Of a stretch of DNA of 64,000 nucleotides, positions 46,416 to 55,868 are shown in pieces (within the stretch, counting starts at the first letter, position 1; each line of letters begins with the position of its first letter). The position numbers and the translations under genes are program-made. The notes below the pieces were generated by a model. That model was not told the origin of the DNA and made no database searches. It saw only the letters and a program-made list of their open reading frames with translations. This DNA is from an uncultured archaeon (GTDB lineage: Archaea > Asgardarchaeota > Thorarchaeia > Thorarchaeales > Thorarchaeaceae), in the NCBI GenBank assembly GCA_964631415.1, contig CAZVZC010000001.1:80260-144259 (forward strand), written 5' to 3'.

Positions 46416-48737
46416 CTAATCGGTCGTCTTCTCTTCTCGGTATGCTGGATACTCTAGCTCCAGCAGATGCCTTATTCTGCCGGCCGTCTTTGGTCCCACT
46501 CCCTTGACTCTCATCAGCTCGGTTTCATCTGCTGAGAACACCCTCTCCAAGGTGCCGAATTCTGCCAGAATTGCCCTTGATATCACAGTGTCAATGCCTG
46601 GAAACCCCGAGAGAATGTACTCAAGGGTTTCAGCATCAGTCCCCTTGGTTTCTGGCGATCGAGTACGCAAAATCCTCTTGGACTCCACCTGTTCAAGGTA
46701 TGCAATTCGGTAAAGCAGGTTTGCTGTTTCCTCTGCATTTCTGGTCCAGAGGGTTGGAATCCTAAGCCGTGTCGCTATGGATGCAAGAGCACCATATATC
46801 GACGCAGGATTCACTGCCCTTAGACCTGTCAGCTGCTCCCCCTCAATAATCAGCACAGGCCTGCGGTAGGTCGAACGCAACGCACTCAACTGTACGAACA
46901 GTCTGCCATCGATTAACGATTGGATGAAGTCGCCAGACTCTTTTCGTTCGATTGCAACCTCCTCAGAGGCAATGTAGTCGCCGACCTCAAGGCTCTCGCC
47001 TGATATCGCGACATCGAGTCTTGCCAGTTCGCGGGCGACGGCAGTGGGGAGTTCCCTTGAGTCAACAATCAGTCGTATGCCACCCCTTGGTACAGCGGTT
47101 TCTCTTCCTGCATCCCCTGCTGTTTTCAATGTGTGTCCTAGTTCTCCACCGAAGTCCTCTAGGCGCATCTGTTTCTTCTCTGGCTCCTTTTCTGCTTCTT
47201 TGAGGGCTGATGGCATCTTCTTCAATTTGCTGATCACACTCCAATGGTAGTACTCGTCATGTGTGGCTCTGGCCACAAATATGACGACGCGGCCAGGTGA
47301 TCTTCTGCCTGTTCGGCCGCGGCGCTGAATGTATGGGACCACAGATGGAACACAATCGTAGAAAATCACAAGGTTGCACTCAGGGATATCAAGCCCTTCT
47401 TCCCCGACCTGTGTAGCAACCAGTACGTTGAACTCATTGTTACGGAAACCATCCAAGACTTCGATCTGCTTTTTCTGACTGAAACCCCTGTCAGTCCCTT
47501 TCGACGCCTGCCCAACAAAGCGACTGACTCTGACGCCATCGAGTTGCTCAAGTACTTCAACGACTTCAGCAGCCGTATCGCGAAAACGCGTGAACACCAA
47601 TACACGCGAGTCGAGGTTCGTCGAAAGCTGTTCGCTTATGATCTCGAGCAATGCGTCAGCCTTTGGATGTCGGTAGCCCTTCGCAATAAGTGCTTGCAGC
47701 AGGTTCTCGAACTGAATGAACTCCGATCTAGAGATCAGGTCCTTGACACCTTTGGAACTCTTCTTGTTACGAGCCTCTTCGTACATACCTTGAATGTATC
47801 TCAGAGTGGGTGCCAGACCCTGTGTACCGACAAACTCAATCAGGTGAACCACTCTTAGGGCCGCTGTCAGATCGCGCACCAGCAGGTATAGATGGGGCGG
47901 CGGCTTGGTGAACGACCCTATCTCCTTCCTGACCTCACTCTGGACGCGAAGTATCTCCTTCCGGCTCAGTCGTCTACTATCTGGCAGAGAGTACCCATAG
48001 TTGAGCACACGGGAGGTGTAGTCATTCAATAACGCCTGCAGTATGTCTCTAAGTGCTTGGATTTCTGAAGGCAGACTGACATAGCGAATGTCTGTCGATA
48101 TAGCAACCACGTAGTCACGCACGTCAGGACTGCTCTCAGTCCTTACTTCGACTCGTTTGAGTCTCAGGTTTTCACACACTCTTCTAATGTGCTCAGAGTC
48201 GTGGCCTGGAGAAGCAGTGAGACCCATAGACAGCTGTCTCAATCCCTGCTTCTCATACAGCTCTGCAACGAAGGTGTATGCGTAGTTACCCACGCCACGA
48301 TGTGCCTCATCATATACCACCAATGAAACATCATTGAGACCATAGCTCCGCTGAACCAAGTCGTTCTGGAGTGCCTGTGGTGTCATGACGATTACGCGGG
48401 CCGCTGACCAGACAAGCCGTCTATGTTCTGGGGGATCGTTACCTGTCAGGCAAATCACCTGACTCTCGTCAATATCGAGTGCCTGTTTCAGAAAGCGTGC
48501 CTGTTGATCTGCAAGAGGACGTGATGGCGCAAGGAAGAGTATCTTCGAGTCGGGGTAATCAACCAACCGTCTGGCGGCTGTGAGGGCGGCAATCACAGTC
48601 TTTCCCAGACCTGTACTCAGCACAATCATAGTGCTCTCTTTGGCAGCGGCCTCTGAGAGATTCGCCTGATATTGCCTGTATTCTATTGTGTCCTTCCTGA
48701 TAAGCGGCATCTCAACGAAGGAAGGTGCTGCTGCCAT
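46416..48737 (-). CDS. hef: Hef: SF2 helicase fused to an ERCC4/XPF nuclease and (HhH)2
   Basis: 'LSTGLGKT', 'VYDEAH', 'RRGRTGR', nuclease 'VGDYI...VAIERKESGDF...D' and HhH 'VKGVGPKTAGRI'. Start is placed at ATG 48737. Confidence 0.9.
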   Translation of the reverse strand: MAAAPSFVEMPLIRKDTIEYRQYQANLSEAAAKESTMIVLSTGLGKTVIAALTAARRLVDYPDSKILFLAPSRPLADQQARFLKQALDIDESQVICLTGNDPPEHRRLVWSAARVIVMTPQALQNDLVQRSYGLNDVSLVVYDEAHRGVGNYAYTFVAELYEKQGLRQLSMGLTASPGHDSEHIRRVCENLRLKRVEVRTESSPDVRDYVVAISTDIRYVSLPSEIQALRDILQALLNDYTSRVLNYGYSLPDSRRLSRKEILRVQSEVRKEIGSFTKPPPHLYLLVRDLTAALRVVHLIEFVGTQGLAPTLRYIQGMYEEARNKKSSKGVKDLISRSEFIQFENLLQALIAKGYRHPKADALLEIISEQLSTNLDSRVLVFTRFRDTAAEVVEVLEQLDGVRVSRFVGQASKGTDRGFSQKKQIEVLDGFRNNEFNVLVATQVGEEGLDIPECNLVIFYDCVPSVVPYIQRRGRTGRRSPGRVVIFVARATHDEYYHWSVISKLKKMPSALKEAEKEPEKKQMRLEDFGGELGHTLKTAGDAGRETAVPRGGIRLIVDSRELPTAVARELARLDVAISGESLEVGDYIASEEVAIERKESGDFIQSLIDGRLFVQLSALRSTYRRPVLIIEGEQLTGLRAVNPASIYGALASIATRLRIPTLWTRNAEETANLLYRIAYLEQVESKRILRTRSPETKGTDAETLEYILSGFPGIDTVISRAILAEFGTLERVFSADETELMRVKGVGPKTAGRIRHLLELEYPAYREEKTTD

Positions 48738-48836
48738 TCCTCTTCTCGTCCGTTTTGACGTCTTGTCAACACACTTTGATAATACACACTGTAAAAAGCC
48801 TCCTACTTGGAATGAAGCGTAAGGAGTCAGAACCGG

Positions 48837-49172
48837 ATGACTGCGAAAGAGCCGTTGACGAGTGTCGAGGCAGAACTGTATGAACTCAGCATGCCTGGCC
48901 GCCTTCTGGGGAAAGAGGTGCTCGACAACCGAGCGAGGCGAATTGGCATAGTGCGTAGCATAAGAATCGGGCTCAACCCCACCCGTTCCGAGCTGATAAT
49001 CAAAGGTGCAGAGGTGGAGTTTCCGGTTGATTTCTCCAAGGTTGAAACTGTTGGCACTGTGGTGCAACTGAACTCCATGGTCAAGGATGCCGAAGAGATC
49101 GAAGTTCATGATGTGATCAGGCTTCAGAAGGAAGTACTAGACGACATACGCAGTTACTTGGGTGGACACTAG
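48837..49172 (+). CDS. PRC-barrel domain protein
   Basis: 'LLGKEVLDNRARRIGIVRSIRI...ELIIKG'. AAGGAG lies 12 nt upstream of the ATG. Confidence 0.6.
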   Translation: MTAKEPLTSVEAELYELSMPGRLLGKEVLDNRARRIGIVRSIRIGLNPTRSELIIKGAEVEFPVDFSKVETVGTVVQLNSMVKDAEEIEVHDVIRLQKEVLDDIRSYLGGH

Positions 49173-49225: not shown

Positions 49226-50065
49226 ATGTCCGGAGCTGTTTTCATGGACCTCACAGTTGAGAAACTGGCCAAGATGATTGACCATACAGAGCTCAAGCCG
49301 GAGGCGAAACGAGAGAAGATCAAGCAACTCTGTGAGGAGGCGCTTGCTTATCATTTCGCAACAGTATGTATCAATCCAGTTCACGTTCAGTATGCCGCTG
49401 AGCTGCTCAAGGACTCAGATGTGAAAGTATGCTGCGTGATTGGATTTCCGTTCGGTGCCAGCATGTCGACCGTCAAGGCATTCGAAGCCCGAGAGGTTGT
49501 AAAACTGGGAGCTCAGGAGGTGGACATGGTAATGAACATCGGCGCTCTTCGTGACAAGAACAACGATCTTGTAAGGTCTGATATTGAAACTGTGGTCGGA
49601 GCGTCTGGGAGCGCCCACGTCAAGGTCATCTTGGAAACGGGCTTTCTCACTGATGATGAGAAGAAACAGGCCTGTATACTCGCCAAGGCGGCGGGAGCTC
49701 ACTTTGTCAAGACCTCCACAGGTTTCGGCCCTATGGGCGCGACTCCTTATGATGTGAAACTCATGCGTGAAACAGTGGGATCTTCTATGGGTGTCAAGGC
49801 GGCAGGCGGCATCCGAAGCTTCAAGGATGCTCTTCAGATGATTGAGGCCGGAGCTGATCGTCTGGGTTCAAGTTCGGGTGTTGCATTGATTGAGGACTTG
49901 CGATGGGCTCAATACAGTGATGCATGGACGCAGCCTGACAAACCCTGCTGGACCTGTCCCAGCCGGCAGGCCAATCTGGCGAAGCAGCCAAAGGAAGTAT
50001 ATCTCTACTACAAACAGCGCTGCCTGACATGCCCAGACCGGGACCAGAACATCTTCAATGACTAG
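49226..50065 (+). CDS. deoC: Deoxyribose-phosphate aldolase (DERA) with a C-terminal Cys4 extension
   Basis: 'IDHTELKPEA', 'TVCINP' and Schiff-base Lys context 'FVKTSTGF'. There is an extra tail of about 50 aa, '...CWTCPSRQ...CLTCPDRD...'. Confidence 0.85.
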   Translation: MSGAVFMDLTVEKLAKMIDHTELKPEAKREKIKQLCEEALAYHFATVCINPVHVQYAAELLKDSDVKVCCVIGFPFGASMSTVKAFEAREVVKLGAQEVDMVMNIGALRDKNNDLVRSDIETVVGASGSAHVKVILETGFLTDDEKKQACILAKAAGAHFVKTSTGFGPMGATPYDVKLMRETVGSSMGVKAAGGIRSFKDALQMIEAGADRLGSSSGVALIEDLRWAQYSDAWTQPDKPCWTCPSRQANLAKQPKEVYLYYKQRCLTCPDRDQNIFND

Positions 50066-50076
50066 AGGGAAACATC

Positions 50077-51873
50077 TTGTCGAAGTCATCGTCTGATCAG
50101 TACTCTGATGCTGGGATTCTGCATGTATCTCTGAGCGACAGAAGCATCCGGAGAGAACCCTTGCCCCCCAGTCTGTTCACTAACTTTCTTGGTGGTCGCG
50201 GCCTTGGTGTGAAGCTCCTGTATGACCGTCTTGCAGCTCGTGTCGATCCGCTGTCCCCGGACAACCTCTTGGTCTTCGCAGTGGGTCCTGTGACTGCAAC
50301 AGCTGTGCCCACTTCAGGGCGTTTTGCAGTCGTCACAAAGTCACCCCTGACGGGCACCATATTCGATTCTAATGCTGGAGGCTCGTTTGGGGCACACCTG
50401 AGGCGCGCAGGATATGCCGCGATCATGTTTGAGGGTCGCTCAACGTCTCCTGTATATCTCTGGCTCAATAACGATCATGCTGAGATACGCGATGCTTCAA
50501 ATGTGTGGGGAACTGATACCCGCATCGCGACCCGGCAGCTGCTTGAGGAAACTGACTCCCAAGCGCAGGTAGCCTGTATTGGTCCTGCGGGAGAAAACCG
50601 TGTGAAACTGGCTGCTATCATCACTGATGAACATCGCGCTGCGGGGAGGGGCGGAGTCGGTGCAGTCATGGGATCAAAGAACCTGAAGGCTGTAGTAGTG
50701 CACGGTACGGGCAATGCTGCAGTCAGCAACGAGCAGGCGTTGAACAAAGCAGTTGAACGCGCGCGTCGACTCATAAAGAAGAATGCAGTCACAGACAAGT
50801 CACTCCCTGTCTACGGCACAGCCGTGTTGGTGAGTGTCATCAACGAACACGGAATGCTGCCCACGCACAATTTTCAGGAGGGCACCTTCAATGATGCTGA
50901 AGGTGTGTCAGGAGAGAAACTGCTTGAGCGCCTGTTTGTCCGTCAGTATCATTGTCATGGTTGTCCAATTGGCTGTGGGCGCATCAGTCGTGTCCATAAC
51001 GAAGAAGTGGGCGGACCCGAATATGAAACCATATGGGCTCTCGGTCCTCAGTGTGGCATAAACGACTTGGAATGGATTGCCGCCGCAAATCATCGGTGTA
51101 ATCTGATGGGTATTGATACCATATCCATGGGGAGCACTATTGGCTGTGCAATGGAGCTGGTCCAGAAAGGTAAACTGAATGCGCCATTGAGATTCGGTCG
51201 GACCGATGGGATCCTCGAGCTTATAGATGATGTAGCACTGAATAGGGGCTTGGGAGCGGAACTAGGAGAGGGTTCTCGAGCAACTGCATCGCGTCATGGC
51301 GCACCAGAGCTGGCGATGCAGGTCAAGGGTCTTGAGATACCAGCCTATGATCCACGCGGTGTACAGGGCCATGCGCTTGGGTATGCGACCTCCAACCGTG
51401 GCGGCTGCCATTTGAGATCCTATCTCATCGGGCCAGAGATAATGGGTGTCCCCGTCATCGTGGACCGGGATCGGACAGATGGTAAGCCCGGTCTAGTGAT
51501 TCTCTACCAGAACCTGTCGGCCTCGATGGACTCTATGGTTCTTTGCCGATTCACCAATTTCGCTTGGGCAGTGGACGACTATGCTGACCTACTAGCTGGT
51601 TGTACCGGGCACCAGATTGACGGCCCTGGTCTACTCACACTTGGAGAACGTATCTGGAACTTGGAGCGCTTGTTCAACCTGCGTGAAGGCCTGTCATCTC
51701 GAGATGACAAGCTCCCACCACGCTTTTCGACACCACTACCTGAGGGCGGCTCACGCAATCGCGTTGTCAATCTCGAAGAGATGCTTCCGAAGTACTACGC
51801 TCTTCGGGGTTGGGACAAAGAAGGTCGACCCACGAAAGAGCGGCTCAAGCGCTTGGGTCTTGCTAAAGTCTAG
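50077..51873 (+). CDS. aor: Tungsten-type aldehyde:ferredoxin oxidoreductase
   Basis: 'GILHVSLSDRSI...GGRGLGVKLLYD', 'GPEYETIWALG', 'CHGCPIGC' and 'DSMVLCRF'. TTG start preceded by GAGGGA, 11 nt after deoC. Confidence 0.9.
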   Translation: MSKSSSDQYSDAGILHVSLSDRSIRREPLPPSLFTNFLGGRGLGVKLLYDRLAARVDPLSPDNLLVFAVGPVTATAVPTSGRFAVVTKSPLTGTIFDSNAGGSFGAHLRRAGYAAIMFEGRSTSPVYLWLNNDHAEIRDASNVWGTDTRIATRQLLEETDSQAQVACIGPAGENRVKLAAIITDEHRAAGRGGVGAVMGSKNLKAVVVHGTGNAAVSNEQALNKAVERARRLIKKNAVTDKSLPVYGTAVLVSVINEHGMLPTHNFQEGTFNDAEGVSGEKLLERLFVRQYHCHGCPIGCGRISRVHNEEVGGPEYETIWALGPQCGINDLEWIAAANHRCNLMGIDTISMGSTIGCAMELVQKGKLNAPLRFGRTDGILELIDDVALNRGLGAELGEGSRATASRHGAPELAMQVKGLEIPAYDPRGVQGHALGYATSNRGGCHLRSYLIGPEIMGVPVIVDRDRTDGKPGLVILYQNLSASMDSMVLCRFTNFAWAVDDYADLLAGCTGHQIDGPGLLTLGERIWNLERLFNLREGLSSRDDKLPPRFSTPLPEGGSRNRVVNLEEMLPKYYALRGWDKEGRPTKERLKRLGLAKV

Positions 51874-51927: not shown

Positions 51928-53889
51928 TTGATTCAGCTGACAACAAGACCGGGTCGAGGAAGGAAGTTTCGGAGAGGGCACGCACCGTTCCTGACGAGAA
52001 TTAGGTTCTACTGGTGTGACAGGTGCAATGTGCCTCGAATCGCGAACAGCAAGTGTTCGGTATGCACAACCCTGCCAAGACCCGTTGGGTTGTCTCCTCC
52101 TGGCGATCCGTTCCCGGCAATGGACGGCCATCTCGATCAAGCCATAAGGGCTGTCAATCGGCAATTCGGAGAAGGTGTAGGTCAGGTACTACTACCTCGC
52201 AATAAGACGATAGTCATGAACAAGGTATCGTCTCTAGATGCCATGTATGAGGTGGTTGTGGATGGATGTGTGATAGGACGACTAAGATTTGACATTCCCA
52301 AGCTTGACTACACTTTTGTCCTGTCTCTGGAGGGCGGTAGGAGGATTGCCAGCGTCTGCAAGCAGAAGTGGGTTTCTTGTCATGAGGGGATTCTAGAGTA
52401 TCTCAAGAAGGGGTCGAACTTGCTGGTCCCGGGAATTGCAGACTGCGACATCGGCATTGATGTCGGTGATGATGTTTGGGTGATAGACTCCGAGAAGCAT
52501 GTGATTGCAGTTGGAGTGGCCCGCATGACAGGACCGGAAATGACCAAGTCAGAGAAAGGGTATGCAATCAAGATACGCGAGGTTGACGATCCACTGGAGG
52601 CGTCTGTGAACGACCAAGAGTCTTCTTGGAACAAAGCCGTGGAGGCGAACTCCAAGGACCTGCAGGCAATCGAAGCAGAGGCCATCGGATTCATCAGACA
52701 TACCATTGAAACCCACAGCGCTCAAGTGGTCGTGGGCTTCAGTGGCGGAAAGGACTCCCTTGTCACATATCTCCTGACTGAGAAGGCTCTGAACAGGAGT
52801 CCTCCCATCTTCTTCACAGACACGGGCTTGGAGCTCCCTGAAACAATCTCGTATGTGAGGGAGTTTGCACAGAGCCGTAATGTCGGGATAATCGGAAGAA
52901 GCGCTGGTGATCGGTTCTGGGAGTCAGTTGATGTCTTCGGCCCACCTGCTCGTGACTTCCGCTGGTGCTGCAAAGTATTGAAACTTGGCCCGGCTGCGAA
53001 GTCCATATCTGATGACTTGGGTGGAGATGCGCTGGTCCTCATGGGACAGAGGAGGCTGGAATCGTTTCAGCGTTCTCTTGAACCCAGGGTGACCTCCAAC
53101 CCGTGGGTCCCGGGGCAAGTTTCTGCGAGTCCGATTCAAAACTGGAATGCTCTTGAGGTGTGGCTCTACATATTCAGAGAGAGAGTTCAGTTCAACCCGA
53201 TGTACAACAGGGGGTATCACCGGATGGGCTGCTACCTCTGTCCCGCCACTCCACTCGCCGAGCTGGAAAGCCTGAAGGACACGCACCCAGTCCTCTATGA
53301 GCGATGGTATTCAAAACTGCTTGAGTGGACAGGAAGGTATGCCTATCCTGAGGAGTGGGCCAAGCTTGGATTCTGGCGGTGGAAAAAGCTGCCAAGTGGT
53401 CAGATGAGTCTGATTGAGGAGTTGGGTCTGAAGATCAAGACTGATCGAGAAGCGCCATCCGAAGCACTTGAGCTGAATGTTGTGAAGGGTGTATCGCCAT
53501 GCACATCTTCCGGATTCAGCATGGAAGGTCAGTTCTCCATGGGTTTGGACCTGAACAGGATTGCCAGGATCATGACAGTCTTTGGCAAGACACAAATGTC
53601 TGATGAACTGGGCGCATTGAGAACGCAAGCCGGTGGTATCAGTATTACCCTGTTCAGCTCAGGATCATTGGTGGTACGAGGAGAGAGCGAAGCCGCTGTC
53701 GACCGAGTCGTGAACCAGCTGCAGCGAGCAATCAGGCGGGTCGTCTTCTGTCAAGCATGTGGTTCTTGTGTCCCTCAATGTGAACAGGGGGCACTGGACT
53801 TGGAAGACGGCAGGATATCGGTTGATGAGAACAGATGCACTCACTGTCTTAAGTGTGATAACTGGCCCTGTCCCACATATCTTGAATGA
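51928..53889 (+). CDS. Zn-ribbon, PUA, PP-loop (PAPS-reductase-like) and 4Fe-4S ferredoxin fusion protein
   Basis: 'CDRCNVP...CSVC'. PUA-like 'LLVPGIADCDIGIDVGDDVWVIDSEKHVIAVGVARM...KGYAIKIREV'. PP-loop 'VVGFSGGKDSLV'. C-terminal 'CQACGSCVPQC...CTHCLKCDNWPC'. TTG start. Confidence 0.7.
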   Translation: MIQLTTRPGRGRKFRRGHAPFLTRIRFYWCDRCNVPRIANSKCSVCTTLPRPVGLSPPGDPFPAMDGHLDQAIRAVNRQFGEGVGQVLLPRNKTIVMNKVSSLDAMYEVVVDGCVIGRLRFDIPKLDYTFVLSLEGGRRIASVCKQKWVSCHEGILEYLKKGSNLLVPGIADCDIGIDVGDDVWVIDSEKHVIAVGVARMTGPEMTKSEKGYAIKIREVDDPLEASVNDQESSWNKAVEANSKDLQAIEAEAIGFIRHTIETHSAQVVVGFSGGKDSLVTYLLTEKALNRSPPIFFTDTGLELPETISYVREFAQSRNVGIIGRSAGDRFWESVDVFGPPARDFRWCCKVLKLGPAAKSISDDLGGDALVLMGQRRLESFQRSLEPRVTSNPWVPGQVSASPIQNWNALEVWLYIFRERVQFNPMYNRGYHRMGCYLCPATPLAELESLKDTHPVLYERWYSKLLEWTGRYAYPEEWAKLGFWRWKKLPSGQMSLIEELGLKIKTDREAPSEALELNVVKGVSPCTSSGFSMEGQFSMGLDLNRIARIMTVFGKTQMSDELGALRTQAGGISITLFSSGSLVVRGESEAAVDRVVNQLQRAIRRVVFCQACGSCVPQCEQGALDLEDGRISVDENRCTHCLKCDNWPCPTYLE

Positions 53890-54091: not shown

Positions 54092-55405
54092 ATGCGCAAG
54101 TATCTAGTCCTTAGTCTGCTTATCTCTATAATCGCCATACCTATCGCCGACTCCTTTGTCATTGAACGAGACCGCAATCGAAATGAGATGTATGGGGAGG
54201 CATTCTGGATCTACGGTTTCGGCATCTACAACATGACAGACTCTCAACTGGCCAATGCACTTCCTCCGGAGTGGGGGTTTAATGATGGTCTGCACACTCT
54301 ACCTGACTACTTGGGCAATATCACGTACGAATACCCTGTCTTCGGTCTCATATTCTTCGCAATCGCTGTATGGCTATACCCGGGCGTAGGTGGACTGCAA
54401 CACTGGTGGTTGAACTTCCTTCTTATTCTGGTGTTCAACCTCAATCTGATTCTAGTAGCCATCCTGTTGCGGGACAAGATCTACAAGGTGCCTTGGGCAC
54501 GTTTCCTGTTCGGTGGCTACTTTGTATATGGCCTCATAATGTCTGCTGGTGGGGGCAAGAACGAGCCTATCGCTGACTGCCTCATGCTGATGGCGCTCGT
54601 TCTCAGGAAGGAAGGTCAGATGAGAAAAGCCATGTTCACTCTCGGCTTGGCTGTGCAGGCCAAAATATACCCTGCAGTGATCTTTCCGATACTGTTTTTG
54701 GAGGCCCCTATTTCGGCTGTCTGGTTCTTAGTTTCCACACTCTTGACAGTGATACCATTTGCTTTTCTTGGGGCCAATTTCGGTTCACTGATCTCGCACT
54801 TCCTCAACGCTGCGAGCTATTCGCTCTACATAGTCAACCCAATGTACTACGAGCTCTTTTTCGCGACTCCAAACCTAGGTACCAACCCGCTCACGTACTA
54901 CATGTGGCCTCCTGCATTGGTTCCTCTTATTATCTACGTTACATTCATGGCCTATACAATACCACTGTACCTTCCATCGAGGCAGCAGTTCCAAGGTAGA
55001 ACAATAGTCCAGAAGCTGCTGGTCCTCAAGCCCTTGTATGTTTATCTTCTCCCTGCCATACTCTTCCTGTACCGCTGGGTCATGCCGTGGTACCTGTTTT
55101 GGCTCGGAATCACGATTTTCCTATTCGACGATGACAAACAGGCCATAGGGTATCTAAAGCAGCTTACCTTAGTCGGTGTGGTCTACACATATGGTTTGTT
55201 GTGCAATGCGCCCTATTTCCTGAACGGCCCACTTCCTGATTTCATGGGGAATTTCACGTCTGGCTGGTACACTCTACTAGGGCTGTCTCTCATGGTCGGA
55301 CTTACCGCTTTGTCGTACTTCGCGTGGAAGTGGACCTTTGAGCGTAGGGAACAAAAAGCGCGTTTCATCCGGGAGGCTGAGGCGCGCGGTGAGCTTGTGA
55401 TCTGA
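54092..55405 (+). CDS. Polytopic membrane protein, GT-C-type glycosyltransferase-like
   Basis: At least 10 hydrophobic segments with aromatic-rich loops. The family call is architectural only. ATG at 54092. Confidence 0.45.
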   Translation: MRKYLVLSLLISIIAIPIADSFVIERDRNRNEMYGEAFWIYGFGIYNMTDSQLANALPPEWGFNDGLHTLPDYLGNITYEYPVFGLIFFAIAVWLYPGVGGLQHWWLNFLLILVFNLNLILVAILLRDKIYKVPWARFLFGGYFVYGLIMSAGGGKNEPIADCLMLMALVLRKEGQMRKAMFTLGLAVQAKIYPAVIFPILFLEAPISAVWFLVSTLLTVIPFAFLGANFGSLISHFLNAASYSLYIVNPMYYELFFATPNLGTNPLTYYMWPPALVPLIIYVTFMAYTIPLYLPSRQQFQGRTIVQKLLVLKPLYVYLLPAILFLYRWVMPWYLFWLGITIFLFDDDKQAIGYLKQLTLVGVVYTYGLLCNAPYFLNGPLPDFMGNFTSGWYTLLGLSLMVGLTALSYFAWKWTFERREQKARFIREAEARGELVI

Positions 55406-55868
55406 CCTGACGTTCGCTGCCGTTGTTCCCATAGAAATCAATAATCCGCTTCCTTATCATTGTCGAGGAGTACAACCCCCCAACGTTCCCTTTTGCGAGC
55501 CTTACTATCTTCGTGCTCAAGCCATGTTCCCTGAGGCGTTTCTCAAGCCCCTCAATGTCGGTTTCTTGATCATAGCCCAGCGCTACTACATCAGGTCTAT
55601 TGTCAATCACAATCGATGTATGATCATCAGTGTCATAGCCCAAGATTGCTTTGTCGACGACTTTCAAGGACTCAATCAACCGCCGTCTCTGTTCCTCGGG
55701 GAAGACAGGAGGCGCTCCTCTCTCCCTCTCAATCGTCTTGTCAAGTGCGATTACGGCAATCAGTTCGCCATCTGGTCCGGCCAATGCCCTTGCCTGCTCC
55801 AGATATGCAATATGACCAAGGTGGAGAATGTCAAACTTGCCAGCCACTAGCACTCTCTTGCCGGTCAT
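55365..55868 (-). CDS. ribL: Archaeal FAD synthetase RibL (cytidylyltransferase fold)
   Basis: 'RVLVAGKFDILHLGHIAYLEQA' (HxGH) and 'YSSTMIRKRI' (ISSTxIR-like). Its 3' end overlaps the membrane gene by 41 nt. Confidence 0.8.
   Translation of the reverse strand: MTGKRVLVAGKFDILHLGHIAYLEQARALAGPDGELIAVIALDKTIERERGAPPVFPEEQRRRLIESLKVVDKAILGYDTDDHTSIVIDNRPDVVALGYDQETDIEGLEKRLREHGLSTKIVRLAKGNVGGLYSSTMIRKRIIDFYGNNGSERQVRSQAHRAPQPPG

What the first reader, a model, noticed from the sequence alone, without database searches (positions are those of the whole stretch)
51928..53889. Uncharacterised Zn-ribbon, PUA, PP-loop ATPase (PAPS-reductase fold) and 2x[4Fe-4S] ferredoxin fusion
Seen in sequence: N-terminal 'CDRCNVP..CSVC', a PUA-like segment, the PP-loop 'GFSGGKDSLV', the PAPS-reductase-family 'WCCKVLKLGP' region, an unassigned middle domain of about 150 aa, and the C-terminal 'CQACGSCVPQC...CTHCLKCDNWPC'. 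Established knowledge: PUA domains bind RNA, and PP-loop enzymes adenylate substrates (tRNA thiolation, lysidine, agmatidine, queuosine/archaeosine steps). Inference: this is a candidate redox-dependent RNA-modification enzyme, such as a thiolase or amidotransferase type, rather than an assimilatory PAPS reductase. As far as I know its function is undescribed.
Basis: partly seen in the sequence, partly recalled or inferred. Interest (0 to 1): 0.6.

Follow-up and report, generated by a model that had tools for sequence, protein, structure and literature searches.

The report
PUA-fused archaeal sulfur-insertion enzyme
This Asgard-archaeon gene, labelled "PAPS reductase", belongs to a widespread uncharacterised archaeal family that joins an RNA-binding-type module to the catalytic cassette bacteria use to put sulfur into DNA backbones, so it most likely puts sulfur into RNA and does not reduce sulfate.

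Summary
Window 51928-53889 (+) encodes a 653-aa protein with these domains in order:
- a Cys4 zinc ribbon
- a pre-PUA (TGT_C2-like) plus PUA module
- a PAPS-reductase-fold core with an intact SGGKDS PP-loop and an APS-reductase-type CC...CxxC iron-sulfur site
- a helical extension
- a ~90-aa alpha+beta domain, newly assigned here as TBP-like
- an 8-Cys di-cluster ferredoxin

It passes NCBIfam PRK13795.1-3, which is named only "hypothetical protein".

New evidence:
- Residues 208-645 align colinearly (29% identity, E 8e-47) with an SspD-like protein in an Ssp-type DNA-phosphorothioation cluster, and with BrxP of an annotated BREX-4 locus. Those proteins lack the PUA module and use DUF4007 DNA-binding domains instead.
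- In a sister paralogue clade, the TBP-like+ferredoxin end is replaced by a full-length SufS-like cysteine desulfurase.
- Sulfate-assimilation genes are missing from most genomes of this lineage that carry the gene.
- ThiI co-occurs with the gene, so it is not a ThiI substitute.

Best reading (about 0.5): a housekeeping, ATP-dependent, iron-sulfur enzyme that inserts sulfur into RNA. The target atom (backbone phosphate or base) is unknown. I found no experimental characterisation of this architecture. Weak in vitro APS/PAPS-reductase activity is reported for Methanocaldococcus jannaschii relatives, which I could not retrieve.

This scan has already noted the same family on other genomes, with the same BrxP/SspD lead.

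The parts
51928..53889 (+). Whole gene: 653-aa Zn-ribbon / pre-PUA / PUA / PP-loop PAPS-reductase core / TBP-like / di-cluster ferredoxin protein (NCBIfam PRK13795.1-3)
   Evidence: ORF. NF010368 scores 591.8 bits against cut-off 588. TTG start argued and from conservation of the N-terminus in L001.
52009..52068 (+). Cys4 zinc ribbon (C30, C33, C43, C46)
   Evidence: Each Cys is kept in 90-95% of 99 diverse full-length relatives. Two short strands are modelled with pLDDT above 90.
52099..52362 (+). Pre-PUA domain (TGT_C2-like), residues ~58-145
   Evidence: Pfam TGT_C2 is weak here (8.6e-4) and over cut-off in relative P0018. Foldseek matches 3d79 and ArcTGT 1j2b/1iq8 over 156-165 columns.
52372..52584 (+). 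PUA domain, residues 149-219
   Evidence: Pfam PUA 4.1e-16. PDB phmmer hits PH0734, Cbf5 and ArcTGT. Foldseek.
52723..53247 (+). PAPS-reductase-fold PP-loop core, residues 266-440. Includes SGGKDS (52741-52758), CC347/348 (52966-52971) and C435xxC438 (53230-53241)
   Evidence: Pfam PAPS_reduct 1e-40. The CC and CxxC align with the cluster Cys of M. tuberculosis APS reductase 7lhr. All are invariant in the family. PADLOC BrxP scores 185.8 bits.
53254..53466 (+). Helical extension of the core, residues 443-513, with the conserved GFWRWK motif
   Evidence: Helices in the models. G481, W483, R484 and W485 are invariant in alignment A1. The region aligns colinearly with the SspD-like protein.
53473..53745 (+). 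TBP-like (Mog1p/PsbP-like) alpha+beta domain, residues ~516-606
   Evidence: Model of residues 441-653 has pLDDT 89.5. The top Foldseek PDB hits are all TATA-binding proteins (1ais_A rmsd 3.0 A over 79 columns, prob 1.00, E 7e-3), and RNase HIII N-domains also appear. BrxP is described with an equivalent alpha+beta domain (PMC12839542).
53749..53871 (+). 2x[4Fe-4S]-type ferredoxin domain (C608, 611, 614, 618; C637, 640, 643, 648)
   Evidence: All eight Cys are invariant in 99 relatives. Pfam Fer4_7/Fer4_9 are weak. The domain aligns with the ferredoxin-like region of BrxP and the SspD-like protein.
48837..49172 (+). 111-aa PRC-barrel-like small protein. It neighbours the PUA/PP-loop gene in many Asgard lineages; here deoC-aor separates the two. 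A functional link is not established.
   Evidence: Adjacent to the orthologue in Asgard families f2, f6, f7, f11, f14 and f18, and in f1 with deoC-aor inserted. Only a weak match to the PRC-barrel protein MTH1895, 1pm3, E 0.05.

Best explanation
The gene encodes a housekeeping, oxygen-sensitive enzyme of anaerobic archaea that inserts sulfur into a nucleic acid, most likely RNA (tRNA or rRNA).

Proposed mechanism, all steps inferred unless marked:
1. The Zn-ribbon/pre-PUA/PUA module docks the RNA, as the C2/C3 domains of archaeosine TGT dock the tRNA acceptor stem.
2. The intact PP-loop uses ATP to adenylate an oxygen of the target. This could be a backbone phosphate oxygen, as proposed for DNA phosphorothioation enzymes of the DndC/SspD/BrxP/Tdp kind, or a base carbonyl, as in tRNA thiolases.
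3. The adenylyl-anhydride sits in a pocket that keeps the APS-binding motifs and the CC...CxxC [4Fe-4S] site of APS reductases.
4. A sulfur nucleophile displaces AMP.
5. The C-terminal TBP-like + di-cluster ferredoxin module is the sulfur/electron-supply side. In a sister clade a cysteine desulfurase takes its place.

Shown here: the domain folds, the conserved motifs, colinear homology with the SspD/BrxP cassette, the desulfurase fusion in the sister clade, and decoupling from sulfate assimilation. Inferred: that the substrate is RNA, that adenylation occurs, and which atom is thiolated.
For: - Architecture and conservation.
- Best profile match in defence libraries is BrxP: 185.8 bits, E 3e-55. 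This compares with 65.7 bits for the CysH model PRK02090 and 39-42 bits for DndC.
- The C-terminal 213 residues alone hit BrxP profile positions 406-499 (E 1e-11), and relative P0326 aligns as one stretch, 208-620 to 101-510.
- A single BLASTP alignment (query 208-645 to 88-523, 29% identity, E 8e-47) links it to a Treponema saccharophilum SspD-like protein. That gene is followed by DUF4007, a 1201-aa hypothetical protein and a class-V aminotransferase. SGGKDS, RWCC, GCxxCP and both ferredoxin motifs are kept.
- BrxP from an annotated BREX-4 locus aligns over the core and the ferredoxin.
- BrxP+BrxC are genetically required for DNA phosphorothioate (PMC12914056). BrxP is described as PAPS reductase + alpha+beta + ferredoxin-like + DUF4007 (PMC12839542).
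- The N-terminal 235 residues have no BrxP counterpart. They fold like RNA-binding PUA modules.
- At least 12 of 151 Halobacteriota genomes have a ~880-aa protein that fuses Zn-ribbon-PUA-PP-loop core to a SufS-like cysteine desulfurase: Aminotran_5 1e-123; TIGR01979 417 bits, below its 475-bit cut-off. It falls in clade A of the family.
- The gene sits among ordinary cellular genes and is single-copy. It was full-length in roughly two thirds of the 101 Asgard genomes searched and present in 53 of 151 Halobacteriota genomes, most with two paralogues.
Against: - No experiment on any member with this architecture was found.
- The RNA substrate is inferred only from the PUA module, and PUA domains also occur in non-RNA enzymes such as glutamate 5-kinase (established knowledge).
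- The cysteine-desulfurase fusion is in the paralogous clade A, not in the window's clade B.
- The partners that DNA phosphorothioation needs (BrxC/SspC/DndD ATPase, DUF4007) are absent from the neighbourhood, so the chemistry may differ from theirs.
- The [4Fe-4S] site has four Cys ligands like APS reductase, unlike the three-Cys sulfide-carrying clusters of TtuA/NcsA-type thiolases.
- Natural RNA phosphorothioate is not an established modification (my knowledge).
- M. jannaschii relatives are reported to reduce APS/PAPS in vitro (PMC3448663; PMC10322725).
- No conserved neighbour points to a particular RNA.
Confidence: 0.5

Rival explanations
1. It is a non-canonical sulfate-pathway enzyme: an APS or PAPS reductase that takes electrons through its own ferredoxin domain, possibly also making APS with its CysD-like PP-loop, and so produces sulfite.
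For: - The fold and most APS-binding motifs of APS reductases are kept, including CC...CxxC, which aligns with the cluster Cys of 7lhr/2goy.
- The profile NF006327 (PRK08557) matches residues 91-501 at 6e-61. It is over its cut-off in one control genome, with M. jannaschii and M. acetivorans the only controls that ring.
- M. jannaschii PAPS-reductase-family proteins MJ0973 and MJ0066 are reported to reduce APS/PAPS in vitro, the former with low Vmax and kcat (PMC3448663; PMC10322725).
Against: - No Cys equivalent to the catalytic ECGLH Cys follows the CxxC.
- The PP-loop is the intact ATP-pyrophosphatase type.
- Three nucleic-acid-type domains (ribbon, pre-PUA+PUA, TBP-like) would have no role.
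- The window's genome (85% complete) has no ATP sulfurylase and no NIR_SIR sulfite reductase, and this is its only PAPS_reduct protein.
- Among 21 genomes of the same family, ATP sulfurylase is in 6 and sulfite reductase in 1, while all 14 family genomes searched carry this gene.
- Methanocaldococcus infernus, which has homologues of both M. jannaschii enzymes, cannot use sulfate (PMC10322725).
- I could not fetch MJ0973/MJ0066 to confirm that they share the PUA architecture.
Confidence: 0.08
2. It is an RNA-modifying PP-loop enzyme whose chemistry is not sulfur insertion. It would adenylate a base or a terminal phosphate, which is then attacked by an amine, water or hydride. This would be lysidine/agmatidine-like amidation or a reductive step, with the ferredoxin domain supplying electrons.
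For: - PP-loop enzymes catalyse many adenylate-and-displace reactions (established knowledge).
- The PUA module is present and the ferredoxin domain is invariant.
- A pyruvoyl arginine decarboxylase (the agmatine-forming enzyme) lies within 0-3 genes of the clade A paralogue in 6 loci, including Methanomassiliicoccus and Methanocella.
Against: - The closest characterised homologues over about 440 colinear residues are sulfur-insertion enzymes.
- The sister-clade fusion is to a cysteine desulfurase, not to an amidotransferase or reductase.
- The arginine-decarboxylase proximity concerns the other paralogue and may be inherited gene order.
Confidence: 0.17
3. The target is DNA or an RNA/DNA hybrid. 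The protein would be a chromosomal, stand-alone phosphorothioation or repair-linked enzyme, with the TBP-like domain binding duplex nucleic acid.
For: - All characterised homologues of the cassette act on DNA (PMC12914056).
- The middle domain has the fold of TBP and of the RNase HIII hybrid-binding domain.
- The clade B gene neighbours Hef (through the PRC-like gene) in seven Asgard families, and a Cas4-like nuclease in 10 of the 14 clade B loci fetched from Halobacteriota.
Against: - The DNA-binding DUF4007 module and the BrxC/SspC/DndD ATPase that DNA systems need are absent.
- A classical PUA module with pre-PUA is characteristic of RNA-binding proteins.
- The same TBP-like domain is present in BrxP, which already has its own DNA-binding module, and it is replaced by SufS in the fusion proteins. 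Both suggest it belongs to the sulfur-supply side.
- The neighbours differ between lineages, and 9 of the 16 Asgard families examined for it lack the Hef linkage.
Confidence: 0.1

Closest known systems
SspD (the subset with alpha+beta and ferredoxin-like regions) and BrxP of BREX type 4, the PP-loop components of DNA phosphorothioation
   Same: - They share the PAPS-reductase-fold core with SGGKDS, the helical extension, an alpha+beta domain and a Cys-rich ferredoxin-type region, colinear over about 440 residues (29% identity, E 8e-47 to the Treponema SspD-like protein; BrxP profile 185.8 bits).
- The SspD-like protein also keeps RWCC and GCxxCP.
- Cysteine desulfurase is a partner there (a neighbouring gene) and is a fusion partner in the archaeal sister clade.
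   Different: - The archaeal protein has a Zn-ribbon/pre-PUA/PUA module that they lack.
- It lacks DUF4007 (fused or adjacent) and the BrxC/SspC ATPase, PglZ and BrxL neighbours.
- It sits in a housekeeping context and is widely and largely vertically distributed.
- In the tree the defence proteins form a separate long-branched group outside the archaeal family (100/100).
- The Methanosphaera BrxP has RWCT instead of RWCC.
Assimilatory APS reductase (CysH with [4Fe-4S]; PDB 2goy, 7lhr/7lhs)
   Same: Same fold (TMt about 0.66-0.69). The CC...CxxC cluster ligands, the DTG adenine motif, the Arg-loop (GxRxxES..R) and the NP...W...NP..GY...GC..C block are shared.
   Different: - The PP-loop is canonical rather than degenerate.
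- There is no C-terminal catalytic Cys (ECGLH).
- Four extra domains are present.
[quoted passage not shown]
Archaeosine tRNA-guanine transglycosylase and ArcS (C2 + C3/PUA tRNA-docking module); PH0734-type stand-alone PUA proteins
   Same: The N-terminal residues ~58-219 superpose on the C2+PUA pair (1j2b, 1iq8: 156-157 columns, rmsd 3.0-3.4 A; 3d79: TMt 0.77). The NCBIfam ArcS model matches residues 79-219.
   Different: The catalytic domain is completely different. tRNA binding was not tested for this protein.
M. jannaschii MJ0973 / MJ0066 (reported thioredoxin-dependent APS and PAPS reductases)
   Same: They are PAPS-reductase-family proteins of a methanogen. A 415-position NCBIfam model (PRK08557) aligns with residues 91-501 of this protein, so it includes pre-PUA and PUA. 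It rings only in the M. jannaschii and M. acetivorans controls and is over its cut-off in one of them.
   Different: Their sequences could not be fetched, so identity with PRK08557 is my inference. The model lacks the ribbon, the TBP-like domain and the ferredoxin. The reported activity is low (PMC3448663) and its physiological role is questioned (PMC10322725).
[4Fe-4S]-dependent tRNA thiolases (TtuA, NcsA/Ncs6, TtcA, archaeal ThiI)
   Same: They are PP-loop ATP pyrophosphatases that adenylate RNA and use an iron-sulfur cluster in sulfur transfer. TtuA 5b4f appears as a distant Foldseek hit.
   Different: - They belong to a different PP-loop subfamily (only a faint ATP_bind_3 hit in a relative).
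- They have a three-Cys cluster with a free iron, versus four Cys here.
- They use THUMP or zinc-finger RNA modules rather than PUA.
- ThiI co-occurs with this gene in 89 of 101 Asgard genomes, including this one, so the gene does not replace ThiI.

Membership tests
NCBIfam PRK13795 (NF010368, 'hypothetical protein', equivalog) | Whole-protein score over the curated cut-off, with end-to-end coverage | tested here: met
   591.8 bits against cut-off 588; residues 21-645 match profile positions 6-625 of 635. The margin is narrow because the Thor lineage sits on a long branch.
NCBIfam PRK13795 (NF010368, 'hypothetical protein', equivalog) | Shared architecture: Zn ribbon, PUA, PP-loop core with CC...CxxC, 8-Cys ferredoxin | tested here: met
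   All motifs are conserved in 99 full-length representatives and in alignment A1.
Assimilatory APS/PAPS reductase (CysH) | PAPS_reduct fold with adenine/Arg-loop motifs | tested here: met
   Pfam 1e-40. Foldseek 2goy/7lhs/1sur, TMt 0.65-0.71.
Assimilatory APS/PAPS reductase (CysH) | C-terminal catalytic cysteine (ECGLH-type) that forms the thiosulfonate intermediate | tested here: not met
   Alignments to CysH/APR end at residues 441-443. No conserved Cys lies between C438 and C608 across the family; C525 is present in only part of it.
Assimilatory APS/PAPS reductase (CysH) | Curated family score (PRK02090, TIGR02055, TIGR00434, TIGR02057) | tested here: not met
   Scores are 65.7, 53.5, 45.9 and 37.7 bits against cut-offs of 154-254.
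Assimilatory APS/PAPS reductase (CysH) | Co-occurrence with sulfate activation and sulfite reduction | tested here: not met
   In the window's own genome, none apart from one marginal APS_kinase hit (28.7 bits). In 21 genomes of the same family, ATP sulfurylase is in 6 and NIR_SIR in 1.
BrxP / SspD / DndC DNA-phosphorothioation PP-loop enzymes | PAPS-reductase core with SGGKDS plus (BrxP, SspD subset) an alpha+beta domain and a ferredoxin-like Cys-rich region | tested here: met
   PADLOC BrxP 3.1e-55. The C-terminal fragment alone scores 1.3e-11. Colinear BLASTP.
BrxP / SspD / DndC DNA-phosphorothioation PP-loop enzymes | DUF4007 / SspB DNA-binding module, fused or adjacent | tested here: not met
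   The protein has no such domain and no such neighbour. DUF4007 is present next to the Treponema homologue.
BrxP / SspD / DndC DNA-phosphorothioation PP-loop enzymes | Operon with BrxC/SspC/DndD ATPase (and PglZ, BrxL for BREX-4) | tested here: not met
   The neighbours are deoC, aor, a membrane protein, a RibL-like cytidylyltransferase and Cdc48. Compare the BREX-4 locus.
BrxP / SspD / DndC DNA-phosphorothioation PP-loop enzymes | Produces phosphorothioate linkages | not testable with these tools
   Needs LC-MS of nuclease digests.
PUA-module RNA-modifying enzymes (ArcTGT/ArcS-like docking) | Pre-PUA (C2) + PUA fold | tested here: met
   Pfam PUA 4.1e-16. Foldseek 1j2b/1iq8/3d79/1q7h.
PUA-module RNA-modifying enzymes (ArcTGT/ArcS-like docking) | Binds tRNA or another RNA | not testable with these tools
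PP-loop tRNA thiolases (ThiI/TtuA/NcsA) | Membership of the ThiI or ATP_bind_3 PP-loop families, and phyletic substitution for them | tested here: not met
   No significant Pfam ThiI/ATP_bind_3 hit. ThiI is present alongside the gene in this genome and in 89 of 101 Asgard genomes.

The most novel reading that the evidence does not exclude
The family is a housekeeping RNA backbone phosphorothioate synthase of anaerobic archaea (methanogens, Thermoplasmatota, Asgard). It would use the same adenylate-and-thiolate chemistry as DndC/SspD/BrxP, aimed at tRNA or rRNA by a PUA module. The bacterial DNA-phosphorothioation defence enzymes and this RNA enzyme would then share one catalytic cassette with swapped targeting domains.
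Probability: 0.2. Interest if true: 0.9.

Novelty: new variant of a known kind. Interest (0 to 1): 0.6.

Why it matters
Databases annotate the family as 'phosphoadenosine phosphosulfate reductase' or 'hypothetical protein'. It was full-length in roughly two thirds of the 101 Asgard genomes searched. It is also in 53 of 151 Halobacteriota genomes searched (most with two ancient paralogues), in Methanomassiliicoccales/Thermoplasmata, and in the M. jannaschii control. Even so, I found no functional study of this architecture.

The present evidence turns a vague 'PUA + PP-loop' guess into a specific, testable claim. The protein carries the complete SspD/BrxP sulfur-insertion cassette with an RNA-type targeting module in place of the DNA-type one, and a relative is fused to a cysteine desulfurase.

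If the product is an RNA phosphorothioate, that would establish a new class of natural RNA modification and suggest an evolutionary link to DNA phosphorothioation defence systems. If the product is a thionucleoside, it would add a new family of archaeal RNA thiolases. Either way, it would correct a widespread mis-annotation that inflates the predicted sulfate-assimilation capacity of methanogens and Asgard archaea.

Tried and rejected
1. Literature. Nine full-text searches found no paper characterising a PUA-PAPS-reductase-ferredoxin protein. Hits on 'PUA' in PMC2584109, PMC12124282 and PMC1779556 were irrelevant. PMC10853773 does not mention the archaeal family.

2. ThiI-replacement idea. Rejected because ThiI co-occurs with the gene.

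3. deoC-aor-gene 'operon' as a functional unit. The linkage is confined to the Thor lineage (L001-L005). In other Asgard families the two genes are absent from the locus.

4. Cys525 ('GVSPC') as a universal catalytic or persulfide Cys. It is invariant in alignment A1, but only about a third to a half of the diverse representatives keep a Cys there.

5. Conserved partner genes. None is shared across phyla. The neighbours are lineage-specific: PRC-like/Hef in Asgard; Cas4-like nuclease or NfnAB-like pair/ThrRS in Methanosarcinales-type genomes; arginine decarboxylase near clade A.

6. Fetching M. jannaschii MJ0973/MJ0066 to test whether they carry the PUA module. This was not possible.

7. The listing of cluster members on ten representatives gave almost no taxonomy.

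9. Model coordinates are not exposed, so distances between the clusters, the PP-loop and the PUA surface could not be measured.


Full report
**Observation**

Window 51928..53889 (+) is an open frame of 653 codons.
- Pfam finds PAPS_reduct (266-440, 1e-40) and PUA (149-219, 4e-16). It finds weak TGT_C2 (79-145) and weak 4Fe-4S dicluster matches (608-644).
- NCBIfam places the whole protein in PRK13795.1-3 (NF010368), an equivalog named only 'hypothetical protein', at 591.8 bits against a cut-off of 588.
- No full-length relative has a solved structure.
- The closest public relatives are Thorarchaeota MAG proteins, annotated 'phosphoadenosine phosphosulfate reductase family protein'.
- TTG at 51928 is the only canonical start upstream of the conserved zinc ribbon, and the N-terminus is conserved in a 74%-identical relative. 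A public gene call of 619 aa that starts at V35 would cut the ribbon.

**Conservation**

An exhaustive HMMER search of 1.84 billion cluster representatives found 398 clusters at E <= 1e-30, many of them full-length at 30-40% identity. In 99 full-length representatives:
- the four ribbon Cys are kept in 90-95%;
- SGGKDS, C347, C348, C435, C438 and all eight ferredoxin Cys are kept in about 100%.

C347/C348 and C435xxC438 align with the [4Fe-4S] ligands of M. tuberculosis APS reductase. The DTG, Arg-loop and NP...W...GY..GC..C blocks of APS reductases are also kept. No Cys equivalent to the catalytic ECGLH Cys follows. C525 is invariant in my 77-sequence alignment but not across the family.

**Structure**

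AlphaFold2 with a 77-sequence alignment gave pLDDT 89.3 and pTM 0.88. Foldseek against the PDB shows two things:
- Residues ~58-219 are a pre-PUA+PUA pair. Matches are PH0734.1 (3d79, TMt 0.77), Ta PUA protein 1q7h, and the C2+C3 domains of archaeosine TGT, including the tRNA complex 1j2b.
- The centre is an APS/PAPS-reductase fold. Matches are 2goy, 7lhs and 1sur at TMt 0.65-0.71, plus the human FAD synthase PAPS domain and CysD.

A separate model of residues 441-653 (pLDDT 89.5) resolves the 'unassigned middle domain':
- a helical extension (443-513);
- a hairpin-alpha-beta4-alpha domain (about 516-606).

The best PDB matches for the second are all TATA-binding proteins (1ais_A, rmsd 3.0 A over 79 columns, prob 1.00, E 7e-3), with RNase HIII N-domains lower down. 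The E-values are modest, so I call it TBP-like with moderate confidence.

**What the cassette resembles**

Earlier notes of this scan pointed to BrxP/SspD, and I tested that lead.
- In PADLOC the protein hits BrxP at 185.8 bits (E 3e-55), far above SspD (45.8) and DndC (42.4). That is also well above the 65.7 bits it gives to the CysH model.
- The C-terminal 213 residues alone hit BrxP profile positions 406-499 (E 1.3e-11). The N-terminal 235 residues hit nothing. A clade A relative aligns as one stretch, 208-620 to 101-510 of the 779-position profile.
- tblastn of residues 235-653 against plasmids found four records covering at least 95% of the query.
- One is an unannotated 543-aa ORF in Treponema saccharophilum pTS1. 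It is followed directly by a DUF4007 protein, a 1201-aa hypothetical protein and a class-V aminotransferase, which is an Ssp-type arrangement.
- Another is the 785-aa 'PAPS reductase family protein' at the head of a Methanosphaera locus annotated with BREX-4 PglZ and BrxL.
- BLASTP gives one colinear alignment of query 208-645 with the Treponema protein 88-523 (29% identity, E 8e-47). It keeps SGGKDS, RWCC, GCxxCP and both ferredoxin motifs.
- The Methanosphaera BrxP aligns over the core (31% identity) and over the ferredoxin, and has RWCT in place of RWCC.

The literature agrees with this picture. BrxP is described as PAPS reductase + an alpha+beta domain (called Mog1p/PsbP-like) + a ferredoxin-like Cys-rich region + DUF4007, an arrangement also found in a subset of SspD (PMC12839542). 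BrxP+BrxC are genetically required for DNA phosphorothioate (PMC12914056).

So the archaeal protein is the SspD/BrxP catalytic cassette with the DNA-binding DUF4007 module absent and a Zn-ribbon/pre-PUA/PUA module added at the N-terminus. In a tree, the three defence-type proteins form a long-branched group outside a monophyletic archaeal PUA family (100/100).

**A Rosetta-stone fusion**

Searching 151 Halobacteriota genomes with NF010366 found the family in 53, most with two full-length copies. Twelve genomes instead carry ORFs of ~876-960 aa that match only profile positions ~35-510.

One such ORF (L084, 879 aa) has this layout:
- Zn ribbon, PUA and PAPS_reduct (225-387);
- then a full-length class-V aminotransferase domain (505-870, 1e-123). 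Its best NCBIfam match is SufS-family cysteine desulfurase (TIGR01979, 417 bits, below the 475-bit cut-off), and it has an HCC-QP active-site motif.

Here the desulfurase takes the place of the TBP-like+ferredoxin module. This ties the family to persulfide/sulfide chemistry and suggests that the C-terminal module is the sulfur/electron-supply side. The caveat is that the fusion lies in clade A.

**Family structure and distribution**

Two old clades exist:
- Clade A holds one Halobacteriota paralogue, Methanomassiliicoccus, Methanocella and the SufS fusions.
- Clade B holds the other Halobacteriota paralogue and the Asgard proteins. The window's protein is in clade B, on a long Thor-specific branch.

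In 101 Asgard genomes a full-length copy is present in most families. It was not found full-length in the searched genomes of several families, among them f8, f13 and f16, some of which are 99-100% complete.

Among 14 named control genomes, strict searches ring only in M. jannaschii and M. acetivorans, not in Haloferax volcanii or Sulfolobus acidocaldarius. The pattern fits an oxygen-sensitive, dispensable function of anaerobes.

**Against a sulfate-assimilation role**
- The window's genome (85% complete) has no ATP sulfurylase and no NIR_SIR sulfite reductase. It has only a marginal APS-kinase-like hit (28.7 bits). This gene is its only PAPS_reduct protein, so there is no CysD either.
- In 21 genomes of the same family, 15 of them at least 90% complete, ATP sulfurylase occurs in 6 and NIR_SIR in 1. 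All 14 family genomes searched (a partly overlapping sample) carry the gene.
- The literature reports weak thioredoxin-dependent APS and PAPS reduction for M. jannaschii MJ0973 and MJ0066 (PMC3448663; PMC10322725).
- The same paper shows that M. infernus, which encodes homologues of both, cannot grow on sulfate, and it questions their physiological role.
- The NCBIfam model PRK08557 (415 positions) aligns with residues 91-501 here, so it includes pre-PUA and PUA. It is over its cut-off in one control genome, presumably M. jannaschii.
- I infer, but could not verify, that at least one of the 'characterised' M. jannaschii reductases is a short member of this superfamily. Its APS activity could be a side reaction of the conserved APS-type pocket.

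**Other tests**
- ThiI is present in 89 of 101 Asgard genomes, including this one, with or without the gene. The protein is therefore not a ThiI substitute.
- Gene neighbourhoods give no cross-phylum partner.
- In the Thor lineage the order is Hef(-), a 111-aa PRC-barrel-like gene(+), deoC, aor, this gene, a 467-aa membrane protein, a RibL-like gene(-), a 92-aa gene and Cdc48.
- In six other Asgard families the gene lies directly beside the PRC-like gene, in either orientation and without deoC-aor. In nine families it does not.
- In Methanosarcinales-type genomes, clade B follows a Cas4-like nuclease gene. Clade A follows an NfnB/NfnA-like pair and precedes ThrRS.

**Mechanism**

The best-supported model has these steps:
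1. PUA-guided docking of an RNA.
2. PP-loop adenylation of a target oxygen.
3. Binding of the adenylyl-anhydride in an APS-reductase-like pocket next to the 4-Cys cluster.
4. Displacement of AMP by a sulfur nucleophile supplied through the ferredoxin module, or by a fused cysteine desulfurase in the sister clade.

An adenylated backbone phosphate is a structural analogue of APS: AMP-O-P in place of AMP-O-S. That may explain why phosphorothioation enzymes descend from the PAPS-reductase fold (inference). An adenylated intermediate is reported for the Tdp DNA system; I know this only from the title cited in PMC12914056 and have not read the paper. Whether the archaeal enzyme thiolates a backbone phosphate or a base cannot be decided here.

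**Verdict**

The protein is a member of a recognised but uncharacterised family, and it is best seen as a new, RNA-type-targeted variant of the SspD/BrxP sulfur-insertion enzymes. The scan has noted the same family before on other genomes.

Noticed in passing
L084:2347-4986 (Halobacteriota genome G235); similar ORFs in G114, G229, G173, G136, G197, G247, G103, G125, G147, G165, G157: An ~880-aa natural fusion joins Zn-ribbon/PUA/PP-loop PAPS-reductase core to a full-length SufS-like cysteine desulfurase, which replaces the TBP-like+ferredoxin end. These genomes also carry a second, short (~470-550 aa) paralogue.
   Followed up: partly
window 48837-49172 (+) and 46416-49109 (-): A 111-aa PRC-barrel-like gene (weak match to MTH1895, 1pm3) is paired divergently with Hef. 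It lies next to the PUA/PP-loop gene in seven Asgard families, in varying orientation. The long Hef ORF overlaps it, so the real Hef start is probably the internal Met near 48730.
   Followed up: partly
window 49226-51873 (+): deoC (with a C-terminal CxxC...CxxC tail) and an aldehyde:ferredoxin oxidoreductase are inserted between the PRC-like gene and the PUA/PP-loop gene. This occurs only in the Thor lineage (L001-L005), with gaps of 11 and 54 nt. The other Asgard families examined lack this insertion.
   Followed up: partly
window 52030 (V35): A public gene call for the identical protein (P0001, 619 aa) starts at the internal GTG and removes the first CxxC of the conserved zinc ribbon. TTG at 51928 is the better start; a GAGGA lies immediately upstream, with no spacer.
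   Followed up: yes
L049, L051-L054, L059, L060 (clade A loci of Halobacteriota): The clade A paralogue is co-directional with an NfnA/PyrK-like and an NfnB/GltD-like gene (a possible NADPH:ferredoxin electron source). A membrane protein and ThrRS follow it. This was seen only in related genomes, so it may be one inherited arrangement.
   Followed up: partly
L033-L037, L039, L040, L043, L044, L046 (clade B loci of Halobacteriota): A Cas4-like PD-(D/E)xK nuclease gene (Pfam Cas_Cas4 1.5e-8) lies immediately upstream of the clade B paralogue, co-directional with it, beside the HMG-CoA synthase/thiolase/DUF35 block.
   Followed up: partly
L016:10227-10697, L020:8419-8919, and L050, L055, L056, L057: A pyruvoyl-dependent arginine decarboxylase (agmatine synthesis) lies within 0-3 genes of the clade A paralogue in Methanomassiliicoccus, Methanocella and four other genomes. 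In five of them it comes with a 173-aa Cys-rich protein.
   Followed up: no
L076:4989-7262 and L086:995-3640 (Asgard family f23): The orthologues are 757-881 aa because of long, low-complexity Ser/Pro-rich insertions within the PUA region and in the catalytic core. An HD-domain phosphohydrolase gene is adjacent.
   Followed up: no
L087:1765-3852 (Halobacteriota genome G189): A 695-aa PUA-less protein has the PP-loop core, a ferredoxin-like Cys-rich region and a long C-terminal extension. It groups with Methanosphaera BrxP in the tree and is probably a BREX-4/Ssp-type defence gene in an archaeal chromosome.
   Followed up: partly
window 55365-55868 (-): A cytidylyltransferase-like protein resembles the archaeal FAD synthase RibL (Pfam CTP_transf_like 4.8e-17, weak FAD_syn). 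It lies two genes downstream. A 467-aa multi-pass membrane protein with no family match lies between them.
   Followed up: no
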